Shown here one piece after another: positions 1-48,229 of a stretch of 64,000 nt of DNA (position 1 is its first letter; every line of letters starts with the position of its first letter). This stretch comes from Paramecium tetraurelia. Lineage: Eukaryota. The position numbers and the translations under genes were made by a program. Under the pieces are notes generated by a model. It made no database searches, was not told where the DNA came from, and worked only from the letters and a program-made list of their open reading frames with translations. Where the stretch lies: the NCBI GenBank assembly GCA_000165425.1, contig CT868185.1:1-64000 (forward strand). The letters are read 5' to 3'.

Positions 1-1274
1 GAACGCTAGCTCCCATGCTTGGGAAATTCGTTTTACATGTTTTAACAAAGGTATGATTTACTTTTGGATGATTTCTTAGCTTTTACTTTAGATAAATTGA
101 ACAGATCAAAAGAGGCTTTAGAAAATTATGACTAAGCAATTTAGATAGGCCCAAATATTTCTGACTATTATAATGGCAAAGGTGTAATTAGATATTGATG
201 ATTACTTAGCATTGACATTAGTGAAAATGAATCGATACTATGAGGCTTTAGAAAATTACGATTAAGCAATTCTGATTAATTCAAATGATTTTCGTTATAA
301 TTTTAACAAAGGTATAATTTATTTGGATGATTTCTAAGCTGCTCTTCTATATAATATGAACAAATTTGAAGAAGCTTAAGAAAATTATGAAATCGGATTT
401 CAGAAAAATCCAGAATATTATGACTATTATTATCGTAAAGGTATAACTAAATATAGTTGATATCTTAGCTGATACTCTAGAGAAAATGAACAGATTTTAA
501 GAGGCTTTGGAATATTATGATGAGGCAATATTGAAAAACCCCACAATTTCAAAGTACTATAGTCGCAAGGGTATAATTCAAAAGAGATAATTTAGCTTTT
601 ATATTATGTAAAAAGAAACAATTTGAAGAGGCTCTGGAAAATTATGATATAGCAATCTCAATAGATCCAGAAGATTCCGAAGGTTATTTTGGTAAAGGTA
701 TAATACAATATAAATGATTTCTTAGCTAATACATTATCTCAAATGAACAGATTTGAAGAGGCTCTATAATTTTATGAATCAGCAATTTAGAAAAATCCAG
801 AAAATTCAGATTATTGTTATCACAAAGGTAAAACCAAAAATGGATTAATTTATTAGGTTATACATTAAATCAAATGTAAAGATTTGAAGAAGCTCTGTAA
901 TGGTATGATTCAGCAATTGAGAGAAATCCAGAAAAATCTGACTATTATAATCGAAAAGGTAACATATAAAATGGATGATATCTAAGCAAATACTTTAGAT
1001 TAAATGTAAAGATTTGAGGAGGCTTTGGAAGGTTATGATTTAGCAATTTAGAAAAATCCAGAAAATTAAAGTTGTCATATTAACAAAGGTATACACATCA
1101 ATTTATAATTTCTTAGCTTATACTCTAGATAAATTGGACAAATTGTAAAAGATTTTCAATATTTAGAATAATTCAAATGTTTAAAAGAAATATAATTACA
1201 ACTTCTAACTTATAAAATAATATATTAACAGGTATTAAGAATTTCGTGATTTGGTTAATGAACATTCTAAATGA
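1..1274 (+). CDS. Tetratricopeptide-repeat (TPR) array protein, 5'-truncated by the window edge
   Basis: Eight 102-nt exons each encode a 34-aa TPR (e.g. ANTLSQMNRFEEALQFYESAIQKNPENSDYCYHK). Introns at 51-79, 182-209, 312-338, 441-468, 571-595, 698-725, 828-856, 959-986, 1089-1116. TGA at 1272-1274. Confidence 0.9.
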
Positions 1275-9603: not shown

Positions 9604-10530
9604 ATGTAGGAAGTATATTTATGCGCCTTATTTGAAAATAATTCATTGCCAGAATTAAAGAGCTTTTTCATTCATTTTAAGAGAGCCAATCCAAGAGTAA
9701 AGAAGGTTTACTTTAGAATAACTTCAACTGATTTGGTTTTATATTGCAAAGAATCAATTTCGTCTTGCTATTATATTAGTTATGTTAGTCTTATATATTA
9801 GATAACAATCAAGTGATCGAACAGTTAAAATTGGGCAATTAACAATGCAACAATAAATACATTATATTATAGTTCTAAGATTTCGATACTGTAGTTGGCG
9901 CTGTAAATAAAATTGCCTCAAATCCAAAAGATGTCAGAATTTATTTAGAGCAAATTGAGGATTAAATATTTTTGACTGTATAGAATTCAAATGATTTTAG
10001 TGGAATATCACATAACAAGATGACACAAGCATTATTAAATAGACATACATTGAATTTATTGAAGAATTAGAGATTGTTCAATTAGAACTTTAACCTATGA
10101 TAATTATGCCTACTTATTTATTGAATTAGTAAAAACTAACTTTAACTTTAGAATGGCTACAATAGCAAAAAATTATGATGCCCCTTTAAGATTGAATTTT
10201 TATAAATAATAAGGCTTATATTCAGTTGAAATAATTGTGTAATTAGAAAATGATGTCCCCTCCTTCTCCACACTCTTTTTGGCCTCCTAACACCAAGCAG
10301 AAAATTTAAAACAGATTGATGTATACGATTATGTTAATAGATATTAGAGCTTTTTCTAAATATCAAAAAACTACATCCAATAGTTTATTGATATAACATC
10401 GATAGAAGAAAACATAGTTATTACTTTGGATTAATCACCAACTAGCCCATTAGTTCTCAATTACTTATCTGGTAGAGCTGTGGAAATGGGCATTGTTAAA
10501 CAGTTCATCATATAAAGAATGTATAGTTGA
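9604..10530 (+). CDS. Hypothetical protein, possibly Hus1-like (9-1-1/PCNA-fold clamp subunit)
   Basis: About 290 aa. The N-terminal pattern KKVYFRITSTDLVLY...NNKYIILQF...DVRIYLEQ..FLTV resembles Hus1. Weak, by-eye similarity only. Confidence 0.4.
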
Positions 10531-26597: not shown

Positions 26598-29500
26598 TCA
26601 TTCTAATTATGATTCGATCTTCTATTATTCCTCTTCTAAATATTTGCCTACAAACTCTTTGGGTTTCTGATCTGATTGTATTTAAACTTCCTCTTCAAAT
26701 TGCTAGTTTAATGTTTCTCTTTCTTAAAATTCAAAATAAACTTGCTCTTCTTATAATTCAACGTTATAATAACCCTTTTCTGTTGCTTCTTGAGGTTGGT
26801 ATATTTCAGATTATTGTAAACTATCAGTATTTTAAATATCTCCAATGTGAGCTGCTTGTTCTTTTAAATTTGGAAAACATGTGATTTATTCAGTTAACTA
26901 TGGTTAAATGTCGTTTTAAAGTAATTATTCATTTTAATTTTATTAAATAATCGAGTTTATTTGCTCTGTCTTTGACATTTATTGAATTGCTTTAGTTTTC
27001 ATTTTAAAATTCTATTCATCTTCTTTTTGTTAATCTAATTCTATTTCAGGCTATTAAACCATCTAAACAATTTTAACTTCTGGTTCCTGCAATTGAACTA
27101 AATCTTATGTTTCATTTTATTGTTTCTCATCATTTTATTATTATTCTGATTCTGAATTGTCATCTTACCTTTATTAATTCCTAAGTTCAAAATTCTATTC
27201 ATCTTCTTTTTGTTAATCTAATTCTATTTCAGGCTATTAAACCATCTAAACAATTTTAACTTCTGGTTCCTGCAATTGAACTAAATCTTATGTTTCATTT
27301 TATTGTTTCTCATCATTTTATTATTATTCTGATTCTGAATTGTCATCTTACCTTTTATTAAATTCCTAAGTTCAAAATTCTATTCATCTTCTTTTTGTTA
27401 ATCTAATTCTATTTCAGGCTATTAAACCATCTAAACAATTTTAACTTCTGGTTCCTGCAATTGAACTAAATCTTATGTTTCATTTTATTGTTTCTCATCA
27501 TTTTATTATTATTCTGATTCTGAATTGTCATCTTACCTTTATTAATTCCTAAGTTCAAAATTCTATTCATCTTCTTTTTGTTAATCTAATTCTATTTCAG
27601 GCTATTAAACCATCTAAACAATTTTAACTTCTGGTTCCTGCAATTGAACTAAATCTTATGTTTCATTTTATTGTTTCTCATCATTTTATTATTATTCTGA
27701 TTCTGAATTGTCATCTTACCTTTATTAATTCCTAAGTTCAAAATTCTATTCATCTTCTTTTTGTTAATCTAATTCTATTTCAGGCTATTAAACCATCTAA
27801 ACAATTTTAACTTCTGGTTCCTGCAATTGAACTAAATCTTATGTTTCATTTTATTGTTTCTCATCATTTTATTATTATTCTGATTCTGAATTGTCATCTG
27901 ACCTTTATTAATTCCTAAGTTCAAAATTCTATTCATCTTCTTTTTGTTAATCTAATTCTATATCAGGATATTAAACCATCTAAACAATTTTCACTTCTGG
28001 TTCCTGTAATTAATCTATATCTTATGTATCAATTAATTATCTATGATCGATTTTACTATTAAGTCTCTTAAAATTTTATTACTATTCTGATTCTGAATTA
28101 TCATCTGACCTTTATTAATTCCTAAGTTCAAAATTCTATTCATCTTCTTTTTGTTAATCTAATTCTATTTCAGGCTATTAAACCATCTAAACAATTTTAA
28201 CTTCTGGTTCCTGCAATTGAACTAAATCTTATGTTTCATTTTATTGTTTCTCAACATTTTATTATTATTCTGATTCTGAATTGTCATCTTACCTTTTTTC
28301 ATTTCTAAGTTCGAAATTCTATTCATCTTCCTCTTATTAATCTAATTCTATTTCAGGCTATTAAACCATCTAAACAATTTTAACTTCTGGTTCCTGCAAT
28401 TGAACTAAATCTTATGTTTCATTTTATTGTTTCTCAACATTTTATTATTATTCTGATTCTGAATTGTCATCTGACCTTTATTAATTCCTAAGTTCAAAAT
28501 TCTATTCATCTTCTTTTTGTTAATCTAACTCTATTTCAGGCTATTAAACCATCTAAACAATTTTAACTTCTGGTTCCTGCAATTAAACTAAATCTTATGT
28601 TTCATTTTATTGTTTCTCATCATTTTATTACTATTCTGATTCTGAATTGTCATCTTACCTTTTTTCATTTCTAAGTTCGAAATTCTATTCATCTTCCTCT
28701 TATTAATCTAATTCTATTTCAGGCTATTCAACCATCTAAACAATTTTAACTTCTGGTTCCTGCAATTGAACTAAATCTTATGTTTCATTTTATTGTTTCT
28801 CATCATTTTATTATTATTCTGATTCTGAATTGTCATCTGACCTTTATTAATTCCTAAGTTCAAAATTCTATTCATCTTCTTTTTGTTAATCTAACTCTAT
28901 TTCAGGCTATTAAACCATCTAAACAATTTTAACTTCTGGTTCCTGCAATTAAACTAAATCTTATGTTTCATTTTATTGTTTCTCATCATTTTATTACTAT
29001 TCTGATTCTGAATTGTCATCTTACCTTTTTTCATTTCTAAGTTCGAAATTCTATTCGTCTTCCTCTTATTAATCTAATTCTATTTCAGGCTATTCAACCA
29101 TCTAAACAATTTTAACTTCTGGTTCCTGCAATTGAACTAAATCTTATGTTTTATTTTATTGTTTCTCAACATTTTAATTATTATTCTGATTCTGAATTGT
29201 CATCTTACCTTTATTAATTCCTAAGTTCAAAATTCTATTCATCTTCTTTTTGTTAATCTAATTCTATATCAGGCTATTAAACCATCTAAACAATTTTAAC
29301 TTCTGGTTCCTGTAATTAATCTATATCTTGTGTATCATTTAATTGTCTATCATTGATTTTATTATTTAGTTTATCATCATTTTTATTAATTGTTGTATAT
29401 GACATTTATTATCCTAAATCTAATTACTCTTACTCATTTTATCCTCTTTCTTTAAGTTATTTTGGAATCTCTTCACTCTTTTTTTAATATTCTTCATCAT

Positions 29501-32458
29501 TTTCTTATTAATTAAGACCGCTTCTTAATTCAAAGTTACTACAATCTTCGTTTTCCTAACTAATTTCTTCATTCTACGTGCCGTTTTATTTTATTTCTAT
29601 TTAATTATTAGGTATATATAAATTGGTCAATTGTTATTCGTTTTTCCCATTATTTTTTATTGTATTATTTGTTTGATTTTTTAAGTCGTTAATATCTTTT
29701 GTTAATTTTTCTTATTTTACTTGTGCTTATAAATTATATTCTTAAATTTCTAATGTTTTTTATTTTATTTAAACCTCATAAGTCTAATTTTCCTATTTCA
29801 ACTATTGTATCTATTCTATTAGTTAATTAACTTTAATTTTAAGTTGCTCAATCTCTTCTTTCTTTATAAAATCATTTTTTATTACTTATTATTAAAGCAC
29901 TTTTAATTATTCATCTTTTGCTATTAAAGATAACTATAAATCTTCGATTTTTTTTTAATTTTCACTTATTTCTATTATCTTCAATTTTTATGTATTAATC
30001 AAATCATCTATTTACTTTTCTAATTTACCATTATATTTAAATTAATTTTGTTATAATTCCTCTATTTCTTCTCTCTTTTTCTCAAGACTTTTCTAAAGGT
30101 CATCTTTTACGGCTTACAATTCATTAACCTTTTATTTTAGCTCTTCGTTATTCTGTTTTTGATCAAAAAATTATTTTTCCAATTTTTCTATTATTTCAGC
30201 GTCATCATTACTGTTTGAATGCAACAAATTTTCTAGATCTTAATTTTTTTGTTTTAATAATTCATTCTCATTTAATAAAACATCTTGATAATTTCCTTAA
30301 TTTTAAGCTTCTAAATTCTATTCCAGTTCTTAAATTTTCATATTTGATTTTATTATTTGTGATTCTTAAGTTTCTTATTCAGATTAATAAAGCTTATTTT
30401 AATCAAAAAGATGTTTATTCTGCTCCTTCAGTTAATTGATTTCTATCACTTTTTGATTGACTTCTTCTTCTAATTCTCCTATTTTTTCTTGTAATTTGTT
30501 TCTCTAATGATAAAGTTTTGAATTTTCATTTTCTAATTATGTAAAATTTGATAACTTTTCTTCTTCAATTTTTTGTATTTCTTTTTATTTAAGTTCAAAA
30601 TTGTTTTTTATTTGTTATTTTTCCTTCTCTAAAGAATTTATTTTTATTAGATTCTCTTCATGAATCCTTGTTAAATCATCAATTTCTATCTAACATTTTT
30701 ATAATTCTTCCGAAATTTCTTTAATTTAATTTTATAATTGAATGATATGATTTTTTAATTAAGATTTTTCAGTTTAGTACTCTTTATTTTCAGATTTTTA
30801 TTAAATTATAAATTTTTCAAAATCTTTTATATTTTAATTTTACTTTTCTAGTTTGTTTAACAACTATAATATCTCAACATCTTTTTAATTATTCGTCAAA
30901 TTTAATTATTCTATTTACTAATTCAAATCATTAATTTTATATTCCAATTCCACTAACTATGATTATTAATTTGATAATCTAATATTCTCTTATCTCAATT
31001 AATTTACTTCAGCTTCTTATTATTTAATTTTCATACATTTACTTTCTAGAACTTTATATCCTTCAGCATGCTGTTATTTTAATTCTTGATTATTCTTTTT
31101 TATTATCATAAGTTCTTCATTAATTTCTTCAAAATCCACTTATTAATTTAAAAGTTTTTCATTTTATTCCTATAATTCTATTACCTTCCTTTCATAATCT
31201 TTTATCTCTTATTCAAGGTAATTAGTTTTTGGATTATTCTAATATTCCACTTTTAATTAATTAATTTAATCTTCAAATAACTTCAATTATTATTTTAAAT
31301 CATGATTCTGAATTTTCTGTTCGTAGATTATCATTTAAAGGTTGTCATTCTCTTTTTCATAAGATGTTTCTTTCAAAAATTCTTTTGCTTGCTATTTTAA
31401 TTTCCCATTTTCTTCTTCTAATAAACTTATCTCTTAGAGAAATTAATTATTAAGATTTTCTAAATGCTGTAATTTTTCCTAATCTTGCTAATTTGTCTTT
31501 TTCTTTGATTCTCCAATTTAGATTTGTAAAGTATGGATTTATTTATCTTTTCCTTGTAATTGAATCTGTAAAATTTGAATTTCTTGATGTTTTTATTATT
31601 CAATCTATTAATCAAGAGAATTCATACATTATTGCATTTTTTTATTTGTTCATTCAATTTAGAAGTCTACAACTAAAGATTTAATTTTAACTCCTCTGTA
31701 TTTTTCTCTAACTCTTATATTTATTCTTGTAATTAACGAGTTTCAGCGTCTCTTTCTTCTAGTTTTATTGTCAAATCCTTAAAATAAATTTTCTGCTTAC
31801 ATTCATTTCATTGTTTTTCTCATTTGTCATGTTTTATAAATCTAGTGCTTTATAAAGGTTTTCTCTTTCATTTTCAAATCTAATTTCAATAGATTCTATT
31901 TCTCTCTAATATTATTCGATTATTTCTTCGTATTTCTTTCGAATTTAAGCTTATTCCTATTAAGATTGTCGAGATAAATGGGCTTAACGATACTAATATT
32001 CTTTAAGATTTGCAAAGTATTTCTCCTTCCATTATGATAATTCCTTATTCAAAACTGATATTTCTTCTTTATAATTGTCTTCAATAATTTAGACTTCATT
32101 CATTTCCAGAACAAATTATTTGATTTGAGATTATTAATAGACGATCTCCTTGTCTCTAGCTTTTAATTTTGCATCTTAGGAATCTATTCTAAATTGTAGT
32201 TCATCAATTTTCTTTTTTAGTTAAGAAACATCATTTTCTTTTGTGATTATAAAGCTTCCACTAGTTTTAGTTGATATCTCATATGATTTATTATTAACTT
32301 AGTATTGTTATCTAAATTGTTTTAATCAAATACCTGGAATTTCCTCTTTTTATAGAATCTCCCCTAGATCGGATATCATTTGCTTATCGAATCCCCACTG
32401 TAAGATCTTAAGAATTATTTTTGAGATGGCTTTCAAATAATAACTTCTTTCTATCCAT
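26598..32458 (-). CDS. Giant Q/E/K-rich coiled-coil protein with a 61-aa acidic tandem-repeat domain
   Basis: ATG 32458, long heptad-rich frame, repeat array at about 27004-29335, TGA at 26598-26600. Apparent indels at about 29176 (+1) and about 27355 (+2) in this assembly. Confidence 0.75.
27004..29335 (-). repeat. Coding tandem repeat, 183-bp unit, about 13 copies
   Basis: The unit marker TCTATTC(A/G)TC recurs at 27011, 27194, 27379, 27562, 27745, 27928, 28135, 28318, 28501, 28684, 28867, 29050 and 29234. It encodes NFELRNQQRQDDNSESEQQQNDEKQQNETQDLVQLQEPEVKIVQMVQQPEIELDQQKEDEQ. Confidence 0.95.
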
Positions 32459-47118: not shown

Positions 47119-48229
47119 TCATTACTTTAAACTTGTGAATCTTTCTTTTAATAAATTTTTTAAATCATCTATTTCTTTTTTGTATTTATCTTGATAGTTT
47201 TCAATCAATTGATCAATACTATGACAACTAAGTTCTTCTTTTTTTCTTGACATTATTTCATTTGATTTTTGAATCAAATTTTCTGGTCTGCCTTATTTAT
47301 TCGAAGGTGATTCGTCTTCAGGCATATTAGTTTAACTTTCATTCTATAATTTGGTTAAATGTTCTCTAAACTCTTATCCCCAAGCAAGTACGAATGCCCA
47401 ACTTACGAAATGCTTATGCTTATTAATGTCATATAAGTCATCTTCAGCAGATAAGTCTTGAATAGTACTCTCAGGTTGATCTAACTGCTTATGTTTATTG
47501 TTAAAGTTTAGATTATCTTCACCAGAGAAGTCTTGACTAAAATTCTCATGTAAATCAAAATGTTTTTGTCTTTTAATATCATGTAAATCATCTTCAACAG
47601 ATATGTCTTGGCTAGAACACTTTGATTAATCTGTTAATTCTAGGAGGTTCTTCAATGTTCTCTAGAAATCTTGATGTATGATGGGATTTAACAACATCAT
47701 TTTCGAGTTTGAGTTTTCTTAATCAAAAGTAGCTTCATCAGAAGTATTGTCTCCGAAAATAAAATAATTCATCTGCTGCTTATCCCCAATCAATTTTATT
47801 GATAAATGGTTTTCAAGTTTTTTTAATAATTTAGTTTAGAGCTCCTAAATATTTATATATAATAAATAATTTACAGTAGCCTCTTCTATAAATGTTTATC
47901 GTTTAAGTTTGAAGTTATTAAAAGTAACTTCTTATTAGTTTTCAGGCCAGAAAGAATTCTTTAGTTTATTTGCAGATTACCCGCTGAGACACTTAAATAA
48001 AATTTGACATTTGCTTGCTAGTATTCGAACGATTTCTCTTGTTTCATTATCTGTAAACCAGTATTATTTTTAATTATTGTTTTATTGTTTTTGGTCGATT
48101 GAAGGTTGAGGTGACTAAGAAAATCATCTTATCTTTTTTTACTTTATATTTAGGAGGTCTTCCTCTTTATTTATTAGTAGAAGGTTTCTTTTATTATCCA
48201 TTTGATTATTTTTAAGGTTGTTTCCCCAT
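47119..48229 (-). CDS. AT-hook-containing hypothetical protein
   Basis: N-terminal KQRGRPPKYKVKK and an internal duplicated acidic segment (offset 150 nt). Confidence 0.6.

What the first reader, a model, noticed from the sequence alone, without database searches (positions are those of the whole stretch)
51..1116. Exon-modular TPR array: eight exons of exactly 102 nt, one repeat each, with homologous phase-1 introns
Seen: exons 80-181, 210-311, 339-440, 469-570, 596-697, 726-827, 857-958 and 987-1088 are all 102 nt. All nine introns interrupt the codon after the conserved Lys, and several share a GATGATTT/ATC-T(T/A)AG 3' end, so exon plus intron was the duplicated unit. Helix-B residues (RFEEALE.YD.AI..NP) are conserved, while residues around the junction (YYNGK-A, YYYRK-AD, YFGK-AN, CYHK-GY) vary strongly. 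Established: TPR helix A lines the ligand-binding groove, and one-repeat-per-exon arrays are known for Tetrahymena LRR genes and brown-algal TPR genes. Inference: any exon can be skipped, duplicated or swapped without a frameshift, giving a candidate diversifying recognition or immune-like receptor system in Paramecium.
Basis: partly seen in the sequence, partly recalled or inferred. Interest (0 to 1): 0.72.

Follow-up and report, generated by a model that had tools for sequence, protein, structure and literature searches.

The report
Paramecium TPR gene, one repeat per exon
The left edge of the window holds the tail of a Paramecium-type gene in which each 34-residue TPR repeat sits on its own 102-base exon between tiny related introns; this is a real product of tandem duplication, but nothing here shows an immune-like diversifying receptor.

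Summary
Eight exons are each exactly 102 nt. Nine GT..AG introns of 25-29 nt all split the codon after a conserved Lys (phase 1). Under the ciliate code the spliced frame stays open for 340 codons, to a TGA at 1272-1274. Every exon tested matches Pfam TPR models in one register.

The DNA repeat unit is 130 nt, that is exon plus intron. The introns resemble each other more than they resemble other introns predicted in the window (0.63 vs 0.40 identity). Joint duplication of exon and intron is therefore supported.

The receptor reading is not supported:
- The units are old (57-80% identical, dS about 0.7).
- The variable positions are the ones that vary in all TPRs (Spearman 0.71 against 533 non-ciliate repeats).
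- Eight Paramecium relatives carry only TPR domains.
- A 2022 paper states that exon skipping has not been reported in P. tetraurelia.

Print already describes P. tetraurelia TPR genes as having "TPR coding exons", each with a germline IES near its 5' end.

Verdict: an ordinary member of a large Paramecium TPR family and a new example of a known kind of gene architecture. The N-terminus, expression and splicing remain unseen.

The parts
2..50 (+). 3' end of an upstream coding exon. The gene runs off the window start. The exon ends ...Asn-Lys + G like the others, but its loop is longer than in the regular repeats.
51..79 (+). intron, 29 nt, phase 1, GT..AG
80..181 (+). TPR exon 1, 102 nt
182..209 (+). 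intron, 28 nt, phase 1; carries an in-frame TGA if retained
210..311 (+). TPR exon 2, 102 nt
312..338 (+). intron, 27 nt (a multiple of three), phase 1, with no in-frame TGA; retention would add 9 residues in frame
339..440 (+). TPR exon 3, 102 nt
441..468 (+). intron, 28 nt, phase 1; in-frame TGA if retained
469..570 (+). TPR exon 4, 102 nt
571..595 (+). intron, 25 nt, phase 1
596..697 (+). TPR exon 5, 102 nt (TPR_11 29.1 bits, cut-off 26.8)
698..725 (+). intron, 28 nt, phase 1; in-frame TGA if retained
726..827 (+). TPR exon 6, 102 nt (TPR_1 28.6 bits, cut-off 27.8)
828..856 (+). intron, 29 nt, phase 1
857..958 (+). TPR exon 7, 102 nt; 80% identical in DNA to exon 6, the closest pair
959..986 (+). 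intron, 28 nt, phase 1; in-frame TGA if retained
987..1088 (+). TPR exon 8, 102 nt
1089..1116 (+). last intron, 28 nt, phase 1
1117..1271 (+). last coding exon. It begins as one more repeat unit and then decays into a 51-residue tail with no Pfam match and no homologue found.
1272..1274 (+). TGA stop codon

Best explanation
This is the C-terminal part of a protein of the large Paramecium tetratricopeptide-repeat (TPR) family. It holds at least nine canonical 34-residue TPRs that should stack into a protein-binding solenoid, followed by a decayed repeat and a short tail.

The array grew by tandem duplication of a 130-nt DNA unit. That unit comprised one 102-nt coding segment plus one tiny intron sitting in the codon for TPR position 8. 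Every copy therefore inherited the same exon length, the same intron phase and a related intron sequence. The copies have since diverged under purifying selection on the structural positions.

Shown here: the exon and intron structure, the 130-nt DNA period, intron homology, TPR identity, overall dN/dS below 1, and membership of a Paramecium-wide family.

Inferred: the duplication mechanism (unequal recombination or replication slippage), the solenoid and scaffold function, and actual expression and splicing.

By analogy with what is in print for P. tetraurelia TPR genes, each unit probably also carries a germline IES near the 5' end of its exon. The TA at exon bases 10-11, invariant in all nine units, is the candidate junction.
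For: Structure:
- 8 of 8 exons are 102 nt and 9 of 9 introns are phase 1. The spliced frame is open for 340 codons.
- All 7 Pfam queries covering the exons hit TPR_1 in the same register.
- TRF finds a 130-nt period.

Joint duplication of exon and intron:
- Intron identity is 0.633, against 0.405 (background vs background) and 0.391 (TPR vs background); 0 of 5000 permutations reached it.
[quoted passage not shown] The shared internal motif is therefore not a general splice signal.
- Mean intron identity (0.68) equals identity at third codon positions (0.68). This fits joint duplication followed by near-neutral drift.

Selection: dN/dS among the units is 0.52 overall and 0.33 in helix B.

Family:
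- A profile of the 8 exon peptides puts P. tetraurelia GSPATT00011674001 on top (441 bits). About 13 ciliate-like proteins are among the best 150.
- 14 named Paramecium proteins (tetraurelia, octaurelia, bursaria) are among 114 hits at E<=1e-10.
- In 13 ciliate-like relatives, 11 junctions have a 'Lys-Gly plus 6-10 extra residues' insert at exactly this position, against 42 normal junctions. In 140 other proteins the counts are 4 and 901. This is what unannotated 3n introns at the same site would give.
- One paralogous contig end in run X15 reads ...AGG|GTAAAT, the same junction.

Literature (passages read):
- IESs present in 3-6 copies stem from expansion of TPR or WD40 repeats.

Candidate IES junction: the Leu-11 codon is xTA in 9 of 9 units, against 4 of 13 for the other Leu codons of the array.
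Against: - The N-terminal part of the gene lies outside the window, so a signalling or enzymatic domain cannot be excluded for this gene.
- Expression and splicing were not shown. Laid contigs gave no joints.
- At the six positions recalled as lining the concave face (2, 5, 6, 9, 12, 13), pN (0.53) exceeds pS (0.39), giving a ratio of 1.67. This rests on only six codons and on paralogous repeats.
- Exon and intron similarity matrices do not correlate. Mantel r is -0.07 for the upstream intron and -0.22 for the downstream intron, p 0.6-0.8. The fine history of exons and introns is therefore not demonstrably shared.
- No identical or orthologous protein was found in the protein collections. The public annotation cannot confirm the gene model.
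- The 9-of-9 xTA result is post hoc. Its nominal probability is 0.0075 at a window-wide xTA share of 0.58, and the units are not independent.
Confidence: 0.8

Rival explanations
1. First reader's reading. The array is the variable recognition part of an immune-like receptor family. Symmetric exons are skipped, duplicated or exchanged between loci to diversify helix-A ligand contacts.
For: - Phase 1-1 exons of equal length make such changes frame-neutral.
- The family is large in Paramecium. Short words of exons 6 and 8 occur at 23-39 times the depth of the single-copy flank in run X15. The tool warns that this is not a copy number.
- pN exceeds pS at six recalled concave positions.
- Analogous arrays in Tetrahymena and Ectocarpus have been proposed as fast-evolving receptors.
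Against: - The units are 57-80% identical with dS about 0.7, so nothing recent has happened in this array.
- The variability profile is the generic TPR one.
- 8 of 8 relatives have TPR families only.
- No register-specific collinearity with any relative was found. This also means no exon sharing was detected.
[quoted passage not shown] Skipping one exon would need a splice of about 158 nt, where introns are 18-33 nt.
- No telomere repeat lies in the window.
Confidence: 0.07
2. Somatic (developmental) diversification. Each unit carries a germline IES. Alternative use of IES boundaries in neighbouring units, or IES retention, would change the number or integrity of repeats in the new macronucleus.
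For: - Passages of Vitali et al. 2019 report that TPR genes are the most IES-dense, that IESs sit at the 5' end of TPR exons, and that these genes are over-represented among genes with temperature-dependent IES retention.
- A TA is invariant at exon bases 10-11 in 9 of 9 units.
- Removing one 130-nt unit of DNA removes exactly 102 nt of mRNA (arithmetic).
Against: - No germline sequence was available.
- 14 DNA-like or unclassified runs hold 0.97 of the words of the stretch.
- No joint was seen in the one DNA-like run laid. Contigs cannot show rare forms.
- The authors themselves offer the simpler reading that excision merely performs poorly in IES-rich regions.
Confidence: 0.05
3. The locus is a decaying or silent gene copy, and the regular structure is only a relic.
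For: - No protein identical or orthologous to it is in the collections searched.
- The last unit has decayed.
- One 3n intron lacks a stop codon.
- Splicing was not observed.
Against: - 340 codons stay open across nine precisely phased introns.
- All 9 introns keep GT..AG.
- dN/dS is 0.33 in helix B, and the structural residues K7, L11, E19, A20 and Y24 are invariant.
- One run on record as RNA holds 0.41 of the words, and three runs only guessed to be RNA hold 0.44-0.51, where DNA-like runs hold 0.97. By my own arithmetic about 0.55 is expected for a spliced transcript. This is a weak hint only.
Confidence: 0.05

Closest known systems
Tetrahymena group II/III LRR genes: arrays of exactly 90-bp exons with phase-2 introns (Xiong et al. 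2019, PMC6564038; passages read)
   Same: - One repeat per exon, identical exon length, and one intron phase throughout.
- The unit is detectable at the DNA level, and the array is explained by clonal expansion of exon-plus-intron units in a ciliate.
   Different: - TPR (102 nt, phase 1) rather than LRR (90 nt, phase 2).
- Introns are about 28 nt.
- This array shows no recent, species-specific expansion (57-80% identity).
- That paper says P. tetraurelia LRR genes lack such a peak, and it says nothing about Paramecium TPR exons.
Ectocarpus NB-ARC-TPR genes with repetitive TPR exons (Zambounis et al. 2012, PMC3341825; passages read)
   Same: A TPR array with one repeat per exon of fixed length, where shuffling would be frame-neutral.
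   Different: - The Ectocarpus exons are 126 nt (a 34-residue TPR plus a linker). Their 102-nt exons are described as truncated and probably non-functional.
- Ectocarpus introns are long and contain dead exons.
- An NB-ARC domain is present there. None is seen in the 8 Paramecium relatives scanned, and the point is untestable for this gene.
P. tetraurelia IES-dense TPR-motif gene family, e.g. PTET.51.1.G1500001 (Vitali et al. 2019, PMC6771405; passages and the Fig. 8 legend read). Nearest proteins: GSPATT00011674001, GSPATT00009802001 and GSPATT00039102001, plus P. octaurelia and P. bursaria TPR proteins.
   Same: - Paramecium TPR proteins with the same Lys-Ala or Lys-Gly junction and the same consensus.
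- They are described in print as built from 'TPR coding exons'.
- Identity to this gene's product is 42-56%.
   Different: - None is an orthologue. Shifts of the alignment register by 34 residues score equally.
- Whether this gene carries germline IESs is unknown.
- The passages I read do not mention the 102-nt length, the phase or intron homology.
Consensus-type TPR solenoids of O-GlcNAc transferase/SPINDLY and of bacterial TPR proteins
   Same: - Canonical 34-residue repeats with A20, Y24, A27 and P32.
- UniRef names the top relative 'SPINDLY'.
- Cyanobacterial TPR proteins score almost as high as the Paramecium ones.
   Different: - No glycosyltransferase domain. The product ends 51 residues after the last repeat with no Pfam match.
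- PF13844 is absent from the Pfam lists of P0004.
- Position 7 is Lys and position 8 is Ala, instead of the usual Leu and Gly (the usual residues are recalled).

Membership tests
Tetratricopeptide repeat (Pfam TPR_1 PF00515 / TPR_11 PF13414) | A sequence match above the curated Pfam cut-off | tested here: met
   - TPR_1: 33.0 bits (cut-off 27.8) for window:212-439, and 28.6 bits for exon 6.
- TPR_11: 29.1 bits (cut-off 26.8) for exon 5.
- The other four single exons score 21-27 bits for TPR_1, below the cut-off as expected for 33-residue pieces.
Tetratricopeptide repeat (Pfam TPR_1 PF00515 / TPR_11 PF13414) | A 34-residue period with small or hydrophobic residues at positions 8, 20 and 27 and Pro at position 32 | tested here: met
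   A8 in 7 of 8 repeats (Gly in 1), A20 in 8 of 8, A27 in 7 of 8 and P32 in 7 of 8. The period is exactly 34 codons.
Exon-modular repeat arrays made by exon-plus-intron duplication (Tetrahymena LRR type) | At least 3 consecutive exons of identical length, one repeat each, with all introns in one phase | tested here: met
   8 exons of 102 nt and 9 phase-1 introns.
Exon-modular repeat arrays made by exon-plus-intron duplication (Tetrahymena LRR type) | The repeat unit, intron included, is detectable at the nucleotide level | tested here: met
   TRF period of 130 nt. Intron identity is 0.633 vs 0.405 background, with 0 of 5000 permutations reaching it.
Exon-modular repeat arrays made by exon-plus-intron duplication (Tetrahymena LRR type) | Recent, lineage-specific clonal expansions with a genome-wide exon-length peak | not testable with these tools
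   No genome is held for the window. Within this array the closest pair of units is 80% identical, so nothing recent is visible.
NLR/STAND-like immune receptors with a TPR sensor (e.g. Ectocarpus NB-ARC-TPR) | An NB-ARC or NACHT nucleotide-binding domain N-terminal to the repeats | not testable with these tools
   The N-terminus lies outside the window. In 8 of 8 Paramecium relatives scanned, no such domain appears at E<=1e-3.
NLR/STAND-like immune receptors with a TPR sensor (e.g. Ectocarpus NB-ARC-TPR) | Diversifying selection on ligand-facing positions | tested here: inconclusive
   - The ratio is 1.67 at six recalled positions (six codons, paralogous repeats), against 0.39 elsewhere.
- The variability profile matches generic TPRs, rho 0.71.
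- No orthologues were available.
NLR/STAND-like immune receptors with a TPR sensor (e.g. Ectocarpus NB-ARC-TPR) | Exon shuffling between loci, or exon-skipped isoforms | tested here: inconclusive
   - No collinear or shared exon with the 8 closest relatives.
- No joints in 4 laid runs, which were contigs only.
- The literature reports no exon skipping in P. tetraurelia.
P. tetraurelia IES-dense TPR-motif genes (Vitali et al. 2019) | A germline IES near the 5' end of each TPR exon | not testable with these tools
   No germline sequence was available. The only pointer is an invariant TA at exon bases 10-11 in 9 of 9 units.
O-GlcNAc transferase / SPINDLY | A C-terminal glycosyltransferase family 41 catalytic domain | tested here: not met
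   The product ends 51 residues after the last repeat, and that tail has no Pfam match. The stop codon is at 1272-1274.

The most novel reading that the evidence does not exclude
The germline repeat unit may be a triple module of TPR exon, tiny intron and IES. Because the module is periodic, the domesticated transposase that removes IESs could join boundaries of neighbouring modules, or leave IESs in. That would produce macronuclei with different numbers or states of TPR repeats. It would be a developmental, environment-sensitive way of varying a binding surface, loosely parallel to transposase-derived receptor rearrangement in vertebrates. Deleting one 130-nt unit of DNA stays in frame after splicing.
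Probability: 0.05. Interest if true: 0.8.

Novelty: new member of a known kind. Interest (0 to 1): 0.33.

Why it matters
If a genome-wide count confirmed many 102-nt phase-1 TPR exons, Paramecium would join Tetrahymena (LRR) and brown algae (LRR, TPR) as a third case. In all three, a repeat-protein family expanded by copying exon-plus-intron units. In Paramecium the introns are among the shortest known, and a germline IES is reported in each unit of such genes.

That would give a compact system for asking three questions:
- How do introns and IESs propagate together with coding repeats?
- Why are these gene models so often mis-annotated?
- Do such arrays vary between strains or between macronuclei?

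As a single locus, with old units and no sign of ongoing diversification, it is a clear but ordinary example.

Tried and rejected
- Own genome. None is held, so no genome-wide exon count and no upstream sequence.
- Laying public runs. Four runs (X20, X18, X17, X15) gave only 31-184-nt contig pieces inside exons 1, 6 and 8 and in the 3' end. There were no joints and no variants, so neither splicing nor skipping could be seen. 'No joints' is not evidence of absence.
- Metagenome scan. I searched for two 'FEEA'-coding motifs spaced at the exon-plus-intron period. It returned 109 loci, and the 109 files on hand were screened. The 4 loci inspected (2 of them the only ones with G+C at or below 0.35 and a period near 130) were non-coding repeats. 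No ciliate TPR array was found.
- Search for the gene's own or orthologous protein:
  - The exon 2+3 read-through gave 3 hits, the best at 36% identity.
  - The unique 51-residue tail gave 0 hits among 6 candidates.
  - A profile of seven window pieces gave 114 hits, none identical.
- Scan notes. They gave nothing relevant.
- Mantel test of exon against intron similarity. It was null.
- Introns 1 and 3 are 89% alike. I judged this within sampling noise for 27 nt among 36 pairs and did not test it further.
- My intron finder for the background set is crude. It used codon log-odds and kept frame-switching candidates only, and the 21 introns kept were additionally chosen for GTA..(T/A)AG ends and 20-31 nt length. 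The background is small and pre-filtered.
- Considered and rejected: that the 25-29-nt segments are IESs rather than introns. They begin GT and end AG. They are present in DNA-like runs at 0.97 word share, while RNA-type runs hold only 0.41-0.51.

Full report
**What is there.** The window has about 25-30% G+C. Bases 1-1274 hold the 3' part of a plus-strand gene that runs off the window start. They are separated and flanked by nine segments of 29, 28, 27, 28, 25, 28, 29, 28 and 28 nt, and all nine begin GT and end AG. Each exon ends AA(A/G)-G, so each intron lies after the first base of the codon that follows a conserved Lys (phase 1). With TAA/TAG read as Gln (table 6), the joined frame is open for 340 codons and stops at TGA 1272-1274. 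TGA as the only stop codon and introns of 25-29 nt fit Paramecium. A paper gives 18-33 nt, 25 on average, for P. tetraurelia introns, and the nearest proteins are from Paramecium species.

**TPR identity and register.** All 7 Pfam queries that cover the eight exons hit TPR_1. Exon residues 1-3 align to profile positions 9-11 in each. Three queries pass a curated cut-off. The intron therefore sits in the codon for TPR position 8. Each exon encodes the second half of helix A, helix B, the loop, and the first half of the next helix A. K7, L11, E19, A20 and Y24 are invariant. A8, A27 and P32 are each kept in 7 of 8 repeats. The 51-residue tail has no Pfam match and no homologue. Its DNA still aligns to the start of a unit, so it is a decayed repeat.

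**Was exon plus intron the duplicated unit?**
- Tandem Repeats Finder reports a period of 130 nt, not 102: 397-1067 at 70% matches and 717-1134 at 75%.
- For a background I predicted introns elsewhere in the window with a crude finder based on codon usage and frame switches. I kept 21 with GTA..(T/A)AG ends and lengths of 20-31 nt.
- Mean pairwise identity of the 14 nt before the AG is 0.633 among the nine TPR introns. It is 0.405 among background introns and 0.391 between the two sets. None of 5000 permutations reached the observed value.
- For the 8 nt after the GT the values are 0.549 against 0.438 (p 0.0008).
[quoted passage not shown] The shared ...GGATGATTTCTTAG-like 3' part is therefore ancestry, not a splice signal.
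- Mean intron identity (0.68) equals identity at third codon positions (0.68).
- Against a simple shared history, exon and intron similarity matrices do not correlate (Mantel r -0.07 and -0.22). With about 28 nt per intron this test is weak.

**Age and selection.** Exons are 57-80% identical, and exons 6, 7 and 8 are the closest (74-80%). Among units pS is 0.46 (dS about 0.7) and pN is 0.29. The dN/dS ratio is 0.52 overall, 0.63 in helix A and 0.33 in helix B. At positions 2, 5, 6, 9, 12 and 13 the ratio is 1.67, but that rests on six codons and on paralogous repeats. I recalled those positions as the concave face; they come from no call. As a control I extracted repeats from the proteins found by the profile search. 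The per-position entropy of the window's eight repeats correlates with that of 533 repeats from non-ciliate, mostly bacterial, proteins (Spearman 0.71, p 3e-6). 'Conserved helix B, variable junction' is thus the generic TPR pattern.

**The family.**
- A profile of the eight exon peptides, run against 1.84 billion representatives, gave 13,338 proteins at E<=1e-3. The top hit is P. tetraurelia GSPATT00011674001 at 441 bits.
- By composition, about 13 of the 153 proteins then on hand look ciliate.
- A word-indexed profile search gave 114 hits at E<=1e-10 among 2453 candidates. Fourteen of them are named Paramecium proteins: 3 tetraurelia, 7 octaurelia and 4 bursaria.
- None is this gene's product or a clear orthologue. 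The best identities are 56% over 169 residues, 50% and 42%. Shifting the register by one repeat scores the same.
- Eight relatives scanned with Pfam show TPR-type families only.
- Several public models read through or mis-frame these units. At the Lys-7 junction, 11 junctions in 13 ciliate-like proteins carry a Gly plus 6-10 extra residues, against 42 normal junctions. In 140 other proteins the counts are 4 and 901.
- The window's own 27-nt intron gives just such an insert when read through. The intron position therefore appears to be shared across the family, including P. bursaria.
- In run X15, words of exons 6 and 8 lie at 23-39 times the depth of the single-copy flank. One contig end shows another exon ending AGG|GTAAAT. 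The tool warns that summed depth is not a copy number.

**What is in print.**
- Xiong et al. 2019 describe the Tetrahymena 90-bp LRR exon arrays. They state that P. tetraurelia LRR genes lack such a peak (passages).
- Zambounis et al. 2012 describe 126-nt TPR exons in Ectocarpus NB-ARC-TPR genes (passages).
- Vitali et al. 2019 report that P. tetraurelia TPR genes are the most IES-dense, with up to 10 IES per kb and 1135 of 44,928 IESs. [quoted passage not shown]
- Arnaiz et al. 2012 ascribe IESs present in 3-6 copies to expansion of TPR or WD40 repeats (passage).
- Guérin et al. 2017 list TPR among macronuclear tandem repeats (passages).
- Gnan et al. [quoted passage not shown]
- In P. bursaria, intron retention and alternative 3' sites are the most frequently regulated splicing events (passage).
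- Five full-text searches turned up no paper among those listed that describes 102-nt phase-1 TPR exons or their intron homology in Paramecium. Supplements were not read.

**A pointer to the germline.** All nine units keep TA at exon bases 10-11. The Leu-11 codon is TTA or CTA in 9 of 9 units, while the other Leu codons of the array are xTA in 4 of 13. The window-wide share of xTA among Leu codons is 0.58. Since IES excision leaves a TA, this is a candidate junction for the IES reported at the 5' end of TPR exons. It is post hoc and untested.

**Splicing surveillance.** Read from genomic DNA, 4 of 9 introns have an in-frame TGA inside the intron. All four are 28-nt introns, and the TGA lies in the shared motif. 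The 27-nt intron has none and would add nine residues in frame.

**Expression.** It was not shown. Laid contigs gave no joints. One run on record as RNA holds 0.41 of the sampled words, and three runs only guessed to be RNA hold 0.44-0.51, against 0.97 in DNA-like runs. By my own arithmetic, about 0.55 of 31-mers would lie wholly within exons and the 3' end. This is a weak hint of a spliced transcript.

**Verdict.** The duplication inference is supported. The receptor or diversification inference has no support in what could be tested, and it runs against what is reported about Paramecium splicing. The locus is an ordinary member of a large, partly described Paramecium TPR family. It is a new example of the known 'one repeat per exon' architecture.

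Noticed in passing
window 27006-29366 (minus-strand ORFs 27002-29626 and 29169-31649): A very young in-frame tandem repeat of 183 nt (61 codons) with 92-97% matches. It lies inside a giant Gln/Glu/Lys-rich, coiled-coil-like gene and has no Pfam family above cut-off. It contrasts with the old 130-nt TPR unit, which contains an intron.
   Followed up: partly
window 312-338: The only intron of the array whose length is a multiple of three (27 nt). It has no in-frame TGA, so retention would escape nonsense-mediated decay and insert nine residues into helix A.
   Followed up: partly
window exon bases 10-11 of each unit (e.g. 89-90, 219-220, 348-349 ... 1126-1127): An invariant TA (the Leu-11 codon is always TTA or CTA) in 9 of 9 units. 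It is a possible germline IES junction, given the published position of IESs in P. tetraurelia TPR exons.
   Followed up: partly
proteins P0004, P0008, P0001, P0012, P0068, P0093 (public Paramecium gene models): Public models of this family contain stretches that look like read-through 3n introns at the Lys-7 junction and, in P0004, frame-shifted translations of whole repeat units. Annotated products of these genes are therefore unreliable.
   Followed up: partly
run X15, loose ends at window 190, 1062 and 1064: Contig ends that leave the window sequence inside exons continue as other TPR exons and introns, one ending AGG|GTAAAT. Paralogues with the same junction therefore exist in the same organism.
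   Followed up: no
window 48115-48142 (minus strand) and 9978-10000: Two predicted introns of unrelated genes also end in ...GATGATTTTCTTAG and ...AATGATTTTAG. A TGAT-containing 3' part is therefore not exclusive to the TPR introns.
   Followed up: no
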